From assembly GCF_963676685.1 (NCBI RefSeq), contig NC_092347.1:80910001-80974000 (forward strand): a stretch of 64,000 nt of DNA, written 5' to 3'. The position numbers were made by a program. The first letter of the stretch is position 1; every line of letters starts with the position of its first letter. Source of the DNA: Mytilus edulis. Taxonomy: Eukaryota. This document shows positions 12,001 to 24,000 of this stretch, piece after piece.

Positions 12001-15000
12001 GGTGTTATATGTGAACAGCAGGTAAGTCTGAGACACCATTCTAATTACTGTTAATGCCACATTTATTTTGATCGGTACCAATTTTCATGGATTAAGAAAC
12101 AATTTTATTTTTGTATATACTTGATTTCATGGTTTTGGCAAATTCTATGTACAAGCTTACAGATAATTTGTATTTGTTTGACATTTAAATTTGTGGTCAT
12201 TCTGTATTTGTACTGAAATGTCTTATTATTTAATTTTTTTTATTTTGATTGATGTTTGTTTGCCTTTTGCTTTTAATGTAGAGAAATTTTTAGCCTGTAG
12301 ACAATAAATACATTTATTTTCGTATTATTAGAATTTTGTTACATAAAACTTTTAAAACTTGAATACTGTAATTGTTATTAAAATTAACAGTTGAGTTTGA
12401 TAAAGTTTTTTTGTAAAGATCCAAAACTTAGCATATCAGGTGCACACTTTTAACATGCTTAGAGTTGTCATTTCTGAATTTGAAAAATGTTATATGTTTT
12501 ACAGATAATCAACTTATTGACACCTACTGAGCTTATAAAACTGCTGCCAACTGATGTGGTGCCACCTAGGGTGTATTTGTTAAAACCTGGTCAGTCTATG
12601 TTTATTACAGCCTTGGGGAGAATAGATTTTATTGAGGTAAAAATGTTTGTTTAAAAATTTCATTCTGTGTCTTACATAAATAAAATATTTCTCTTCTCTT
12701 AGTGACTCTTACATTTCATCATTTTGTAAATTTAGTAAAACAGTGACATCAAACAACCTGTTGTAAAGGGACATATAAATTTCAAATGCCTGTAATAATT
12801 ATTACATATTTCTTGATATTTAAATCCTGTTTATATGTACACGGTCATTGTTTTTATAGGGAAACAAGCCAGTGTTCATGACAGTCCATGTAACTTCCAA
12901 TATAAAGGTTCACATTAAAGATAAAGAAGAGGCTGATGAATTCTATGACAAAGCTTATGGAACAAGTGTTTTACAGGTAAGTTCGAATTATAATTTGTAT
13001 TGCTGTTTTTCACAGGAACAAAAAACTAGAGTGTCCTGAATTTTGGTAGCAGGATACATGTGACCATGCATATATGTAATGCTGTGGTTTTATTTTTCTC
13101 ACATGTATTGTGCCTCAACTTCATGTTTACCCAATACTTGTATCTGGATATAAATGACGCATAATGTCCATGTATAAAAATTTTCTCTGCATTTTTCTCA
13201 GAAAATACAATTAGATCTTCCTGGAATAATATTGGCAACTCTATGTGAGCATTCATAGCTCATCAACTTACTATTTATTGAATAGTTTATAGTATTGCAC
13301 ATAATAGACATTTATGAAATCTCTTGTCCCATTGCTCTCAAGAACTGCAAATCAGATCTCTTTCAAATTTAATACCAAGTTTCATGACATCATACTATAC
13401 TGTATGATGCTTTTTCATATCTGTTAGTCACCAACTTCCTCTTCACAGAATACTGATATCAGGGGTATTATTAACTTTTGTAATGAAAAAGTGCAAATAA
13501 TTTGCTTGTTATCCGTACCTATTAATTTAAAATGATATATAGAATGAAATTCAAAACAGTGTAGCTGTGGCCATTGATTGACACATTAAAATCATCCATT
13601 GACTGGGACAATTTACGTGAACGTTTGTCTGTAACGACCACTGTTCACGACGTACCTACGATAGACATTTAAACTGTGGGGTCACCAAAGGTTTCTTAAC
13701 GCCTTTAATTATAAAATAATTCGAAAAATTAATCAGGAATAACCTTTGTGTTTTGATTTATATAATTGATATAAATCAAAATATCGTGTTATTTCTGATT
13801 AATTTTTCGAATCACTTTATTTAGGTGTTGAGAACCTTTGGTGACCCCATAGTTTAAGTGTCTTTAAAAAGTACATAGTGAGCATTGGTCGTTACATACA
13901 AACGTTCACCTAAATTGTCCCAGTCAATGGATGATTTTAATGTGTCAATCAATGGCCACAGCTACACTGTTTTGAATTTCATTCTATTTTTGTTTGTCCT
14001 ATTTTACAGCATAAAGTAAACCTAAAATTTATGTTTTTTCCTTTTTATACGACCGCAAAAAAATTGTGGTAGTATATTAGTATCACCTCAGTGTTGAGGT
14101 CGGCGTCATCATCATCCAAAGACATTTGGTTTCCGGACAATAACTTTAGTATAAGAAAAAAAATAATCTATAAAATTTAAACATAAGGTTTATTTATAAC
14201 CACAAAAGGAAGGTTGGGATGAATTTTGGGGGTTATGGTCCAATCAGTTTAGGAATAACGGGTCAAAAGGAGCCCAAATAAGCACTTTTCTAGTTTCTAG
14301 ACAATAACTTGTGGAATGGTGTATGGATCTCTCTGAAATTATACCACAAGTTTCCATACCACAAAGGAATGGTTAGGATTGGCTTTGGTGGGTTAGGGCA
14401 CAAACTGTTTAGGAATTAGGGACAAAAAGGGGGAAAACAAGGGTTTTCTGGTTAATGAACAATTACTTTATACAATGCTATGTTTGAATTACCTCCCTTG
14501 CACTGCTTTAAATGACATGTATGAATAAAGAAATGTTGTATTGTCTTAATGTGATTAGCTGTCAATTTATTTTAAGAAGTTACTATTAAAAATGCTGATT
14601 GAGGTATTTTAAATTTAGCCATGATTATATATGTCATTTTCTATTTTAATATTTTTATGATGTATTTAAGTGGGTAATAATTATGGTTGCAAACTCCATT
14701 GGAAATTTGAAGTGAGATTATGACCATATCTTGAGGGAAAGAATTATTATTTATTTTGGAAAATAGGGTGGGGTAAAAAAGAAATTGTGGGGGACAATTT
14801 TTTCTCCTGAAGATTTCAGAAATTTAAAAGAAAATGTCTAAAATCATTATTGAAAAATCATTTTAAAAAACAGGGGGGGGGAGGGGGGCACTTCTCAACA
14901 CCATAGTGTATTGCACAAAAGCTAACAATAAATATAAATTCAAATCATATAACCAATTCTAAGTTCTTTTACTACAGTTATTCTGTGTCAGAAACCTATT

Positions 15001-21000: not shown

Positions 21001-24000
21001 TGTTTTCAATAAACATCCCATGCCTGAAGATTATAAAAGCTGGTAACTCCAAAAAGCTTTTAAAATTCATAGCCTATTTTTCTGTTGTAAGAATTTTAGT
21101 TCCTTTTTTCACATCAGCTTTTTCATTTAGAATTAGTAAAATAAAAGTTATATTCTATATTCTGATCATATTTTGACCTACATTATTGTTGATCCTATTT
21201 AGCAGTTTGAATGTAAATTTCCCTGTAAAAATGTATACTTTTTTACTTATTACTTATATTAAATATACCATTTAGCTATTTTTTTAAGGTACCTATTGAT
21301 GAAGAAAGACTTGACAGTATACCATCATTAGTTGGAAGAGAGTACCATTTGACAAACTTTGTGTCTAATGACCATGCCATTGCAGACATTCAGCTTTCAT
21401 CACTAGGTAAGTCTTTTTTCTTCAACCAATCACAGTAAGTCTGACTGCTTTAAACATGATCCAAACAGGTTTTCTATATTTTTGCTGTACTTGCAAATAA
21501 TGAATTTTTGAAATGTGTTTAGGGTGAATCTAGTTCATACCAGTTTCTTGTCATTTTGTGTTCAAAAACTGAAACCAGACACATGTGATTTTGTTTCAGT
21601 TGATATCAAGATTTTTTCATACTTTTAAAAGGAGGGTCTCCCATTCAGATTTTTTTTTCAAGAGATATATTTTAATGGCAGAAATTTTTTGGTCATGGTG
21701 TTTTGTTTTGAAAATCGCCACAGGACAGATTTTACAAAAATAGATATTCTATTTGAAATCTGTAAAATCTTTACCGGGTATTACAATTATTAAAAAGCAC
21801 CTGCTAACTACCACAAAGTAAATTGTTTAGTGTACTTGACACGTTTGGCCAATAAGAGAATGTTGAAGAAACGTTACTTTGTAATATTAATGAATAAGGA
21901 ATTTATCATGCAAACTACATCAATTTTTGTTTTGCTTGACGGAGTCAAAAAGAGAGACATAGGTATGCTGTTTCCGGCGGCGGGGGCGGGAACGAAGGCG
22001 TCAACAATGTAATAGTTTGTGATTAGGTCTAGTTTATGGTGAACCACTAGTGGTAGGTCAAAGATATTTGGTATGCAGTTGTATTAGTTTTGGCACATAT
22101 CATTGCCTTGGAGATAATTTGGCCCCGCCCCCTCAGTTATGGTCTATTGACTTTGAAATTTTTGCTTAGTTTTCATGTATTAGTTTGTGATTAGGTCAGT
22201 TTATGGGGAACCACTATTGGTAGGTCAATGATATTTGGTATGCTGTTGTATAAGCATTGGCACATCTAATTTTTTTCATGGAGATTATTTGGCCTGCCCC
22301 TCTGTCATGGTCTATTGACTTTGAAACTTTGATTAGTTTACATGTATTAGTTTGTGATTAGGTTTGTTGAAAGGGAACTACTTATGATATTATACAATGG
22401 TATTTAGTATGCAGTTGTATTAGCATTTGCACATCTTATTTCCATTGAGAATGTTCAGCCATGTACCTTCAGTCATGGTTCATTGACCTCTTTTATTTCA
22501 ACATTTGCATTATCGAATTTACAAAAAAGCGAGACATATCTCTGTGATAACAGTTTATTATTCATCAATTACTTGACCTATGGTTTTCTGTATTCTTTAC
22601 CCTATACTAAACCTTTTTGTTGGTTTTTTATTTGGAAGTTAGATATCTATAATGTCAGTATATTTCTAGTGATATTTCTAAGGATATCTTTATATAAGAA
22701 TAAGAAGTTTGGAAGAATTGCCAATGAGACAACTATCCACTAGAGTCAAGTTTGCTGTTGTGCAAAGGTCTAATAGAATAAAGGTTACATCACAATTGTT
22801 TTTCTTTGTAAAAATGCAACATGTAAGCTATTTTTTAATTTTCCCATTATGAAATGGCCTTTTTATCTCAAGTTCATCTGTGCACATACATAGAAAAATA
22901 ATGTGAACATAAATTGTCCTGAATATATAAAAGTTGGGATCATGCCTTATTCACATACATCAAGAAAATGTGAAAAACGCTAAAACATTAATCGCCCAAA
23001 GTGAGCTTGAAACACCGAAACGCAAAATAAAGTATCCATGAAAATAAGTTTGTTTACAGTACTCCCTTTAACCACTCTCTAGAAATATAACATGAAATTT
23101 CACCTTGTTTATTATTTCTATTTACAGGCTGGGTTTCTGTTACTAAAAGTGAAAACAGTGATGTAAGATTAAGAGCCTACACACCAGGAGCTAAAGGACT
23201 ATATTTAAGAGAACCAGCATTGTTGCCTAATATAAAGGCTTTCAGAGGAAAGAGAATTGGGGGAAAACAAGAATACAGAATTCAACCACCAAAAATGCTT
23301 TAGATAATAAATATTTCATCAGTCTGTTAATTGTCACTATTATGCCTTCTACTAATTATCAATACAAAATGCATGCATTTTTCAACACTGTGTGGAAAAA
23401 AAGACACAAAACAATTGATGTTTAGGCGAAAATGCAAAGAAAATAATAATATTGAAAGTGTGTCTTTCTGTCTATTTATCAGTCCTGTTCTTGTCATCCA
23501 ACCCCTCTGAAATCATACCAAAATTAAACTTTATAGATAATAAGGACATACTAAATAGATGTGTATATCGATTAATGACAGGAAATTATGATTCAATTTT
23601 ATTCTTCTATAGTTATGCCCCTTTGAACTTAGAATTTTGGTCGAAATATACTACTGCAACAGTTAGTTATAGCAACTCATCAGAAACTACATAACAGAAT
23701 TTCATGAAACTTTATAGTTAAATAGGACATAATATGTGGTGCATAACCACAAGGAACTTTTATAACACATCTTTTGTAGGAGTTATGAGTCCTTGAATTT
23801 TGGATTCTGGTGAGTTTTTGTTTGCCCAGTGACAATGTGGGGCCATGGGGTATGTGAGCATGCTCACTACGATTCTTTCAGTTTCGAAATTGAAATAACA
23901 GCTTAAATGAATAAATTAAAAAAGAGATGTAGAATATATGACAATGAGACACATCATAACAACACAAAAACATTGTTAAGAGATATTGATATGATCTTCA

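What the first reader, a model, noticed from the sequence alone, without database searches (positions are those of the whole stretch)
12977..21288. Complete immune C1q gene nested on the same strand inside an intron of housekeeping NOA1
Seen: NOA1 introns are 0.2-1.7 kb except intron 6 (8.3 kb), which holds an intact two-exon secreted C1q gene with its own AATAAA, same orientation, flanked by HINE-like and foldback elements. Established: most nested genes are antisense, and C1qDC genes are hugely expanded and presence/absence-variable in mussels. Inference: NOA1 transcription must read through foreign splice and poly(A) sites. Phases permit in-frame chimeras: C1q exon 1 (phase 1) to NOA1 exon 8, and NOA1 exon 1/2/3 donors (phase 1) to the C1q exon. 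NOA1 exon 6 to C1q would be out of frame. The insert may be a polymorphic, TE-carried cassette.
Basis: partly seen in the sequence, partly recalled or inferred. Interest (0 to 1): 0.65.

Follow-up and report, generated by a model that had tools for sequence, protein, structure and literature searches.

The report
C1q gene nested inside mussel NOA1
In the blue mussel, an intact two-exon secreted C1q gene (a family linked to immunity) sits on the same strand inside one intron of the mitochondrial GTPase gene NOA1, which is a real but uncommon example of the well-known "gene within a gene" layout.

Summary
The window is Mytilus edulis. NOA1 has eight + strand exons (8646-23303). A public 676-aa M. 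edulis NOA1-like record matches all eight. Intron 6 is 12977-21288 (8,312 bp); the other six introns are 223-1,721 bp.

Inside intron 6, on the same strand, lies a two-exon gene (15364-16204 and 18362-18756). It encodes a 411-aa protein with a signal-peptide-like N-terminus, a long helical tail and a complete C1q domain (Pfam 5e-31). It is identical to a separately annotated M. edulis protein.

New points:
- NOA1 exon 6 spliced to C1q exon 2 would meet a TAA at once.
- A second M. edulis assembly carries a chimeric "NOA1" model (C1q plus NOA1 exons 7-8). The nest is therefore not a mis-join.
- That model's C1q part is only 69-78% identical to the window, against 95-98% for the NOA1 exons.
- No close ortholog of the C1q gene appeared in other Mytilus proteomes.

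I found no evidence for a transposon-carried cassette. Presence/absence polymorphism was untestable here. Verdict: a new member of a known kind, of modest interest.

The parts
8646..9612 (+). NOA1 exon 1: ATG, CxxC...CxxC zinc-finger-like motifs and G4/G5 motifs of a circularly permuted GTPase. Donor phase 1.
   Evidence: P0001 residues 1-324, 100% by tblastn. Sequence read. Phases.
10016..10144 (+). NOA1 exon 2: P-loop GNTNAGKST. Phase 1 to 1.
   Evidence: Pfam MMR_HSR1 7.9e-07. tblastn 100%.
11077..11256 (+). NOA1 exon 3. Phase 1 to 1.
   Evidence: tblastn 100%..
11810..12021 (+). NOA1 exon 4. Phase 1 to 0.
   Evidence: tblastn. The 676-aa total fits only the 11810 acceptor.
12505..12636 (+). 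NOA1 exon 5. Phase 0 to 0.
   Evidence: tblastn 100%..
12860..12976 (+). NOA1 exon 6: start of the YqeH-like C-terminal domain. Donor CAG|GTAAGT, phase 0.
   Evidence: Weak YqeH-like_C hit 0.0051 on the exon alone. Domain at 547-647 in P0001..
12977..21288 (+). NOA1 intron 6, 8,312 bp: the host intron.
   Evidence: Flanking exons placed.
13529..13992 (.). Foldback (MITE-like) element with 155-nt arms. It has a 97% copy at 4394-4856 and an 82-86% copy at 58879-59074.
14115..14482 (.). Two units of a repeat of about 190 bp. It is 67-73% like 25125-25340, which there abuts a 147-bp-type array.
15364..16204 (+). C1q gene exon 1: ATG with A at -3 and G at +4, hydrophobic signal-peptide-like N-terminus and a 255-aa helical tail. 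Donor AAG|GTAATT, phase 1.
   Evidence: P0038 residues 1-280, 100%. Hydropathy and heptad periodicity. AlphaFold2 helices 2-65 and 71-279, mean pLDDT 81.
16205..18361 (+). C1q gene intron, 2,157 bp.
   Evidence: The junction ..INK|VKPAF.. is also present as one continuous ORF in P0039, on a 1,965-nt contig.
16568..17423 (.). 147-bp tandem array inside the C1q intron (TRF core 16875-17381, 3.4 copies). Related arrays lie at 25356-25994 and 34750-35087.
18362..18756 (+). C1q gene exon 2: complete globular C1q domain and stop TGA. The acceptor has 17 of 20 pyrimidines plus CAG. The exon starts with TAA when read in phase 0.
   Evidence: Pfam C1q 5e-31. PDB relatives include C1q-like 3 at 2.8e-18, and cerebellin-1 and complement C1q..
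18667..18668 (+). Weak GT (AGA|GTATAC, phase 0) inside C1q exon 2, at the point where the chimeric model P0040 jumps to NOA1 exon 7.
   Evidence: P0040 sequence, alignment and sequence read.
19043..19048 (+). First AATAAA after the C1q stop codon: candidate poly(A) signal, unproven.
21289..21406 (+). NOA1 exon 7. Acceptor has 15 of 20 pyrimidines plus AAG. Phase 0 to 1.
   Evidence: tblastn with P0001-P0005..
23128..23303 (+). NOA1 exon 8. Acceptor phase 1, stop TAG, AATAAA at 23306.
   Evidence: tblastn 100% with P0001..

Best explanation
This is a true host/nested gene pair on one strand.

The host is the Mytilus edulis ortholog of NOA1, a circularly permuted YqeH-type GTPase. Its role in mitochondrial ribosome assembly is taken from knowledge of the family, not tested here.

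The guest is an independent gene for a secreted 'sC1q-like type II' protein: signal peptide, coiled-coil stalk and globular C1q head. This is the commonest architecture of bivalve C1q-domain lectin-like proteins.

Shown:
- The guest has its own start codon, a signal-peptide-like N-terminus, one phase-1 intron with canonical GT-AG sites, a complete domain and a stop codon.
- It is annotated apart from NOA1.
- A spliced ORF with the same exon junction exists on a short (1,965-nt) contig.

Inferred:
- The gene arrived by a DNA-level duplication or insertion. It keeps its intron, so it is not a retrocopy.
- It has its own promoter and uses a poly(A) site near 19043.
- Every productive NOA1 transcript must be elongated through the guest's poly(A) signals. 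It must also pair the exon 6 donor with the exon 7 acceptor, 8.3 kb away, skipping the nearer and more pyrimidine-rich acceptor of C1q exon 2.
- If that acceptor is used, the reading frame hits TAA immediately. The message would end in the guest's terminal exon. The product would be a NOA1 lacking its last 97 residues, including 68 of the 101 residues of the YqeH-like C-terminal domain.

The layout thus carries a built-in cost of mis-splicing or premature polyadenylation. That cost is presumably kept low by separate timing or tissue of expression and by suppression of intronic processing sites.
For: - Host: 8 of 8 exons colinear with P0001 at 95-100%. NOA1-named orthologs lead a list of 37 hits among 7,995 scored candidates.
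- Host domains: YqeH-like_C 1.1e-09 and MMR_HSR1 2.2e-09 in P0001.
- Guest: Pfam C1q 5e-31, full length, and 37 solved C1q-family sequences at E<=0.001.
- Guest annotation: 100% match to the separately annotated P0038.
- N-terminal hydropathy peaks at 3.0 over residues 4-12. Hydrophobic autocorrelation peaks at lags 7 and 14. There is 1 Pro and 5 Gly in residues 26-280, and 6 N-x-S/T sequons.
- AlphaFold2 on exon 1 alone gives two long helices, mean pLDDT 81.
- P0039 is a continuous 400-aa ORF on a 1,965-nt contig. It crosses the exon junction, although the genomic span from its first codon to the stop is 3,363 nt.
- A second M. edulis assembly places a C1q gene directly upstream of NOA1 exons 7-8 on the same strand (P0040).
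- Splice phases, TAA at the start of C1q exon 2 and acceptor pyrimidine counts of 17/20 against 15/20.
- The two-exon plan and the signal peptide + coiled coil + C1q architecture are those described for oyster sC1q-like type II genes (passages of PMC6835236).
Against: - I examined no transcript data from this animal. The guest's promoter, transcription start and poly(A) site are therefore unproven.
- AATAAA/ATTAAA occurs about every 290 bp here.
- The signal peptide was judged from hydropathy only, without a dedicated predictor.
- The AlphaFold2 run used a single sequence. Its pTM is 0.34, so only secondary structure is usable.
- P0039 starts at residue 11 of P0038 and its species is unknown. 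It is 88-89% identical overall, so it is not this allele.
- P0040 is formally a C1q-NOA1 fusion model. It could be taken as support for chimeric transcripts rather than for independence.
- Two distant NOA1 queries missed late exons at E<=0.01. Gigantopelta hit 7 of 8 exons (no exon 7). Saccostrea hit 6 of 8 (no exon 7 or 8).
Confidence: 0.85

Rival explanations
1. The insert is a recent cassette moved by a transposon (for instance captured by a Helentron/HINE-type element). It would be present in some haplotypes and absent in others.
For: - C1q genes are among the families most affected by presence/absence variation in M. galloprovincialis (passages of PMC10514466 and PMC7653742).
- Word-index searches found the gene only in M. 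edulis records and one unnamed contig: 6 hits among 960 candidates with exon 1, and 3 among 340 with exon 2. NOA1 itself was found in M. trossulus (94%) and M. coruscus (92%).
- It is the only C1q gene in 64 kb. In the published oyster classification, genes with no C1q paralog within 100 kb are called 'dispersed', a class the authors link to transposon-driven duplication; this window spans too little to assign that class (passages of PMC6835236).
- Two repeat families that abut each other at 25125-25994 bracket the C1q 5' flank and exon 1 here (14115-14482 and 16568-17423).
- A foldback family with a 97% copy 9 kb away shows recent mobile-element activity at the locus.
Against: - No target-site duplication or terminal inverted repeat frames the gene. 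The only repeats spanning it are 21-32 nt at 74-85% identity, which is chance-like.
- The six intron-6 ORFs of at least 75 aa that I scanned have no Pfam family.
- The bracketing repeats are only 67-73% alike and rest on a single comparison copy.
- The gene is present in both M. edulis assemblies represented (P0038, P0040).
- The nearest other C1q cluster is only 50-54% identical over the domain, so no recent donor copy is visible.
- HINE hallmarks (subterminal inverted repeats, microsatellite, 3' palindrome; passages of PMC7492417) were not established.
Confidence: 0.15
2. The C1q exons are alternative exons of one complex NOA1 locus. Chimeric proteins (C1q stalk-NOA1 tail, NOA1 head-C1q domain) or a deliberately truncated NOA1 would be functional products.
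For: - Same strand, with in-frame phase combinations.
- P0040 is a public model joining C1q to NOA1 exons 7-8 in frame.
- The C1q exon 2 acceptor is the most pyrimidine-rich of the eight acceptors at the locus.
Against: - P0040 lacks the signal peptide.
- It leaves C1q exon 2 at a weak GTATAC site and truncates the C1q domain at profile position 101 of 127. That pattern fits an automatic predictor attaching two orphan exons.
- The other annotation of the species gives two separate complete proteins (P0001, P0038).
- The in-frame combinations need several constitutive exons to be skipped.
- NOA1 exon 6 to C1q exon 2, the only junction that skips no exon of either gene, gives an immediate stop.
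Confidence: 0.07
3. The nested C1q gene is a dead or decaying copy with no function.
For: It has no close ortholog in other Mytilus proteomes. The positional counterpart in another assembly differs strongly, 69-78%.
Against: - A 411-codon frame is open across two exons in DNA of 31.5% G+C.
- Splice sites are canonical and the C1q domain is complete.
- The two relatives P0039 and P0040 also keep open frames through the shared region.
- A spliced ORF exists on a short contig.
Confidence: 0.05
4. The arrangement is an assembly mis-join.
For: None found. Mussel genomes are hard to assemble because of hemizygous regions (passages of PMC7653742).
Against: - The window has no gaps.
- Host exons on both sides are colinear and give the full 676-aa protein.
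- An independent assembly has the same order: C1q, then exon 7, then exon 8.
Confidence: 0.02

Closest known systems
Same-strand nested protein-coding genes that contain introns (Drosophila and human surveys; Lee and Chang 2013, PMC3814207; Assis 2016, PMC5174743; Kaer et al. 2011, PMC3192792; passages read)
   Same: - The guest lies wholly inside one host intron.
- The guest is short, belongs to a rapidly evolving and expanded family, and has a single intron (the median for same-strand multi-exon guests in flies).
- The host has a long intron only at that place.
- The expected cost is mis-splicing and cryptic polyadenylation.
   Different: - It belongs to the rarest subclass. In D. melanogaster 71% of guests are on the opposite strand and 72.5% of same-strand guests are intronless.
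- Hosts of same-strand, intron-bearing guests are less often essential there, whereas NOA1 is expected to be essential (family knowledge, not tested).
- Many fly guests arise by retrocopying. This one keeps its intron.
Bivalve sC1q-like type II genes (Gerdol, Greco and Pallavicini 2019, PMC6835236; passages read)
   Same: Signal peptide, coiled-coil tail, C-terminal C1q domain and no collagen repeats. The gene has two exons with the intron before the C1q domain.
   Different: - Oyster C1q genes are 62% tandem and 18% proximal duplicates. This one has no C1q neighbour within the 64-kb window and sits in another gene's intron.
- Its C1q domain is at most 50-54% identical to any other cluster representative over the full domain.
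Intronic elements that cause premature termination of host transcripts (L1 and nested genes; Kaer et al. 2011, PMC3192792; abstract and passages)
   Same: A same-strand unit inside an intron that brings a strong acceptor and poly(A) signals.
   Different: Here the effect is predicted from sequence only. No truncated NOA1 isoform of about 579 aa appeared among M. edulis records of 565 aa or more.

Membership tests
C1q-domain-containing protein, sC1q-like type II | Complete globular C1q domain (PF00386) | tested here: met
   E=5e-31, profile positions 1-125 of 127, on exon 2 alone. 37 solved C1q-family sequences at E<=0.001.
C1q-domain-containing protein, sC1q-like type II | N-terminal signal peptide | tested here: inconclusive
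   The sequence starts M-V-R-G, followed by a hydrophobic core with mean Kyte-Doolittle value 3.0 over residues 4-12, then C-H-G. No dedicated signal-peptide predictor was available.
C1q-domain-containing protein, sC1q-like type II | Coiled-coil tail instead of collagen Gly-X-Y repeats | tested here: met
   Helices 2-65 and 71-279 in the AlphaFold2 model. Heptad autocorrelation at lags 7 and 14, with only 5 Gly in residues 26-280. No collagen family in Pfam. Oligomeric state was not tested.
C1q-domain-containing protein, sC1q-like type II | Lectin-like or pattern-recognition activity, immune role | not testable with these tools
   Inferred from the family only (PMC6835236 abstract).
NOA1 / YqeH circularly permuted GTPase | G motifs in the permuted order G4-G5-G1-G2-G3 | tested here: met
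   Read in P0001. NKVD and SAK are in exon 1, GNTNAGKST in exon 2, PGTT in exon 3 and DSPG in exon 4. The motif names are recalled family knowledge. Pfam MMR_HSR1 2.2e-09.
NOA1 / YqeH circularly permuted GTPase | YqeH-like C-terminal domain (PF21516) | tested here: met
   1.1e-09, residues 547-647 of P0001, 39.1 bits against a cut-off of 27.7. The domain is encoded by exons 6, 7 and 8.
NOA1 / YqeH circularly permuted GTPase | Orthology to animal NOA1 | tested here: met
   Hits named NOA1 from molluscs, insects and vertebrates. All are colinear with the window's exons.
Nested (host/guest) gene pair, same strand | Guest coding sequence wholly inside one host intron, and host exons on both sides belong to one gene | tested here: met
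Nested (host/guest) gene pair, same strand | Guest is transcribed as its own unit with its own 5' and 3' ends | not testable with these tools
   Indirect evidence only: separate public models P0001 and P0038, and the spliced ORF P0039 on a 1,965-nt contig.
HINE (non-autonomous Helentron) element | Left and right modules with subterminal inverted repeats, a microsatellite, a 3' palindrome and central 140-180-bp tandem repeats | tested here: inconclusive
   Only the central repeats are shown: 147-bp units, 3.4 copies, with two related arrays in the window. Flanking modules could not be defined from three diverged copies. Features taken from passages of PMC7492417.
Dispensable (presence/absence-variable) mussel gene | Hemizygous read depth, or absence in some individuals | not testable with these tools
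   No reads and no eukaryotic genome collection were available. The gene is present in both M. edulis assemblies represented.

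The most novel reading that the evidence does not exclude
The nest may be a young locus, restricted to M. edulis and its closest relatives, that holds very old or recombining C1q alleles.
- Between two assemblies the guest is 69-78% identical, while the host exons next to it are 95-98% identical.
- A third sequence is a mosaic of the two.
- The guest's strong acceptor, followed at once by TAA and a poly(A) site, could act as a haplotype-dependent 'poison terminal exon'. 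That would lower output of full-length NOA1 and tie a mitochondrial housekeeping gene to a hypervariable immune gene.
- Its exon 1 may have been brought in by a tandem-repeat-bearing Helentron-type element.
Probability: 0.1. Interest if true: 0.55.

Novelty: new member of a known kind. Interest (0 to 1): 0.3.

Why it matters
Nested genes are common, but the subclass seen here is the one that fly data suggest selection removes, because of mis-splicing. That subclass is a same-strand guest with an intron inside a host that is probably essential.

This locus gives a concrete, testable case in a mollusc, and my searches found no paper on nested genes in bivalves. One junction (NOA1 exon 6 to C1q exon 2) predicts an immediate stop and a truncated NOA1.

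It also warns annotators. One public record named 'NOA1' is really a C1q gene fused to the last two NOA1 exons. Automatic domain-architecture surveys would therefore count a false C1q-NOA1 protein.

The strong divergence of the guest between assemblies fits what is known of mussel immune genes and could be followed up in population data. None of this changes what is known about how nested genes or C1q proteins work.

Tried and rejected
- Cassette boundaries. A search for direct or inverted repeats framing the C1q gene found only 20-32-nt matches at 74-85%. Rejected as chance.
- Transposon proteins in the intron. I gave Pfam 50 of the window's 60 ORFs of at least 75 aa. I dropped ten: the three that are NOA1 or C1q exons (scanned) and seven others, mostly overlapping larger frames (10735-10959+, 15915-16172-, 27553-27780-, 29523-29750+, 29685-29942-, 38823-39071+, 11761-12051+). 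The six intron-6 ORFs among the 50 gave no family.
- Structured RNAs. Rfam at gathering thresholds gave 0 matches over the whole window, and no tRNA was found. No SINE-type or snoRNA explanation.
- ESM Atlas with C1q exon 1. The best score was 0.78, below the level at which a hit means anything. It gave only generic coiled-coil look-alikes.
- A literature search for a 23-base string of the 147-bp repeat found 0 papers.
Accession numbers and cluster membership of P0001, P0038, P0039 and P0040 stayed unchecked.
- Synteny in other Mytilus genomes could not be checked.
- I did not use complex prediction (trimer of the C1q head) or fold search. The domain assignment was already clear and no binding claim is made.
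Exons were searched one by one, and full-length comparisons used the public records P0001, P0038, P0039 and P0040 that the searches returned.

Full report
**What is there**

The window has no N and about 31% G+C. It comes from the blue mussel. Translating the first open stretch of the candidate host gene and searching it returned a 676-aa record, 'nitric oxide-associated protein 1-like [Mytilus edulis]' (P0001). It was 100% identical, ahead of M. trossulus (94%) and M. coruscus (92%). In all, 37 proteins reached E<=0.001 among 7,995 scored candidates.

I ran tblastn of seven of these proteins against the window.
- P0001 fell on eight colinear + strand blocks, 100% identical in five and 95-96% in three that overhang exon ends.
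- The M. trossulus, M. coruscus, one unnamed (lgn) and the Sinanodonta proteins also hit all eight blocks.
- The Gigantopelta protein hit seven (not exon 7).
- The Saccostrea protein hit six (not exons 7 and 8) at E<=0.01.

Reading the splice sites and tabulating them gives:
- Exons 8646-9612, 10016-10144, 11077-11256, 11810-12021, 12505-12636, 12860-12976, 21289-21406 and 23128-23303.
- A CDS of 2,031 nt, or 676 codons.
- Introns of 403, 932, 553, 483, 223, 8,312 and 1,721 bp.

**The guest gene**

Inside intron 6, on the same strand, are two open stretches. The second (18364-18753) matches Pfam C1q at 5e-31 over positions 1-125 of 127. It also matches 37 solved C1q-family sequences, including C1q-like 3, cerebellin-1, complement C1q and adiponectin.

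The first (15364-16203, 280 aa) has no Pfam family above threshold.
- Its N-terminus is hydrophobic and resembles a signal peptide.
- Hydrophobic residues show heptad periodicity.
- Residues 26-280 contain 1 proline and 5 glycines.
- There are six N-glycosylation sequons.
- AlphaFold2, run on that exon alone without an alignment, gives helices 2-65 and 71-279. Mean pLDDT is 81 and pTM 0.34, so only the secondary structure is usable.

A search with exon 1 returned P0038, an 'uncharacterized protein [Mytilus edulis]' of 411 aa with a C1q domain. It is 100% identical and lies on the same 100-Mb contig as P0001. It covers both exons exactly.

The gene model is therefore: ATG at 15364, donor AAG|GTAATT after 16204 (phase 1), a 2,157-bp intron, acceptor at 18362 (phase 1) and TGA at 18754-18756.

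The architecture is signal peptide, coiled coil, C1q head and no collagen. With the two-exon plan, it matches the 'sC1q-like type II' genes that make up 55% of eastern oyster C1q genes (passages of PMC6835236).

Each exon was searched on its own, and full-length comparisons used public records returned by those searches.

**Is the nest real?**

Three things argue against a mis-join or a paralog mix-up.
- The host exons on both sides add up to the complete annotated protein.
- Exons 7-8 encode the rest of a domain that begins in exon 6. YqeH-like_C spans residues 547-647 of P0001, and intron 6 falls after residue 579.
- A different M. edulis assembly supplies P0040, a 440-aa record named 'NOA1'. 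It consists of a C1q stalk, most of a C1q domain and then NOA1 exons 7 and 8. Its NOA1 parts are 95% and 98% identical to the window.

That model is almost certainly a predictor's artefact.
- It lacks the signal peptide.
- It leaves the C1q exon at a weak GTATAC site (18667 in the window, phase 0).
- It cuts the C1q domain at profile position 101 of 127.

Even so, it shows independently that a C1q gene lies just upstream of NOA1 exon 7 on the same strand.

**Evidence for expression**

Evidence is indirect. P0039 is a continuous 400-aa ORF on a 1,965-nt contig from an unnamed source. It runs across the same exon junction (..INK|VKPAF..). The genomic distance from its first codon to the stop is 3,363 nt, so it must come from a spliced message. 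It is 88-89% identical to P0038 overall, so it is another allele or a close species.

**Splicing logic**

Two further points emerged.
- The first three bases of C1q exon 2 are TAA. NOA1 exon 6 (phase 0) spliced to it would stop at once, in a terminal exon followed by the guest's own 3' end. The product would be a NOA1 of 579 aa lacking two thirds of its C-terminal domain.
- That acceptor is the most pyrimidine-rich of the eight at the locus (17 of 20, CAG). The legitimate exon 7 acceptor has 15 of 20 and AAG, and it lies 2.9 kb further from the exon 6 donor.

From sequence alone, this junction is the most plausible interference product. No M. edulis record of about 579 aa appeared among proteins of 565 aa or more.

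The AATAAA at 19043 is the first after the stop. Such hexamers occur about every 290 bp here, and four lie in C1q exon 1, so it proves nothing by itself.

**Origin**

The guest keeps its intron, so it is not a retrocopy. It is the only C1q gene in the 64 kb.

An exhaustive HMMER search of 1.84 billion cluster representatives with the C1q exon gave 5,118 hits at E<=0.001, 463 at <=1e-10 and 12 at <=1e-30.
- Apart from its own cluster, the best single-stretch matches over nearly the whole domain are 52-54% identical (50-53% by BLASTP).
- Three short fragments reach 56-67%, over the first 54-71 residues only.

Word-index searches found close relatives only in M. edulis records and the unnamed contig. 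There were 6 hits among 960 candidates with exon 1 and 3 among 340 with exon 2.

This fits a lineage-restricted gene, but proteome searches cannot show absence from a genome.

I found no target-site duplication or terminal repeats around the gene. No transposon protein appeared in the six intron-6 ORFs that I scanned.

Mobile DNA is nevertheless abundant.
- The foldback at 13529-13992 has a 97% copy at 4394-4856 and a third copy at 58879-59074.
- A 147-bp array sits inside the C1q intron, with relatives at 25.4 and 34.8 kb.
- A ~190-bp repeat at 14115-14482 resembles 25125-25340 (67-73%). There it directly abuts a 147-bp-type array.

In intron 6, therefore, these two families bracket the C1q 5' flank and exon 1. 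That is suggestive of insertion into, or capture by, a composite element. It rests on one diverged comparison copy. HINE hallmarks (passages of PMC7492417) could not be established.

**Allelic divergence**

Between the two assemblies the guest protein is 78% (exon 1) and 69% (exon 2) identical, against 95-98% for the adjacent host exons.

| P0038 residues | P0038 vs P0040 | Variable sites where P0039 agrees with P0040 / with P0038 |
|---|---|---|
| 19-217 | 91% | 12 / 5 |
| 218-280 | 52%, with a 21-residue gap | 1 / 18 |
| 281-383 | 69% | 5 / 18 |

Over 218-383 combined, P0039 agrees with P0038 at 36 variable sites and with P0040 at 6. This mosaic suggests recombination or gene conversion among old allelic lineages. 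With three sequences, one of unknown species, it is only a lead.

**Comparison with what is known**

Nested genes are the commonest kind of protein-coding overlap.
- 63% of human and 71% of D. melanogaster guests are on the opposite strand.
- 72.5% of same-strand fly guests are intronless.
- Fly hosts of same-strand, intron-bearing guests are less often lethal when mutated (26% against 42%). The authors read this as selection against mis-splicing (passages of PMC3192792, PMC3814207 and PMC5174743).

The present pair belongs to that rare subclass but to no new category.

I found no paper holding NOA1, C1q and 'nested' together. None held 'nested gene', bivalve and intron together. Supplements of the papers cited were closed and might list this locus among variable C1q genes.

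**Verdict**

The cassette and polymorphism ideas are unsupported or untested. This is a new member of a known kind, of modest interest.

Noticed in passing
window 11246-11364: A 31-bp unit holding the NOA1 exon 3 donor (..TCAG|GTATTT..) is repeated 3.6 times in tandem. At least two further intact copies of the donor therefore lie 62 and 99 nt downstream of the one used (positions read). Using them would shift the frame.
   Followed up: partly
public record P0040 (not in the window; maps to 15418-16206, 18367-18675, 21286-21408, 23127-23300): A database protein named 'NOA1 [Mytilus edulis]' is a chimeric gene model: a C1q gene fused to the last two NOA1 exons. It is a probable annotation error caused by the nest.
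   Followed up: yes
window 4394-4856, 13529-13992, 58879-59074: Three copies of a foldback (MITE-like) element of about 460 bp. Two are 97% identical and lie in introns of neighbouring genes, which points to recent mobility.
   Followed up: partly
window 3825-5702, minus strand: Exons of a gene with a weak BadF/BadG/BcrA/BcrD ATPase-family match (1.4e-4, below the Pfam cut-off). It looks like an N-acetylglucosamine-kinase-type gene, by recall. It lies upstream of NOA1 on the opposite strand.
   Followed up: no
window 27134-30703, plus strand: An open 1,189-aa retrotransposon pol frame: protease, reverse transcriptase, RNase H and integrase. It is Ty3/gypsy-like and lies 4 kb downstream of NOA1.
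   Followed up: no
window 36963-39239, minus strand: A single 759-aa open frame with Mab-21 nucleotidyltransferase and HhH domains plus TPR repeats. It is a cGAS-like-receptor-type architecture, which would make it another candidate immune gene in the window.
   Followed up: no
window 50044-51108, minus strand: A 355-aa open frame without introns encoding a sphingolipid delta4-desaturase-type protein: Lipid_DES 9.3e-17 and FA_desaturase 1.2e-27.
   Followed up: no
window 22007-22441: A 167-bp tandem array (2.6 copies) in NOA1 intron 7. It is a third satellite-like short array at this locus.
   Followed up: no
window 11810 and 11819: Two in-frame acceptors 9 nt apart at the start of NOA1 exon 4. 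The 676-aa record uses 11810.
   Followed up: partly
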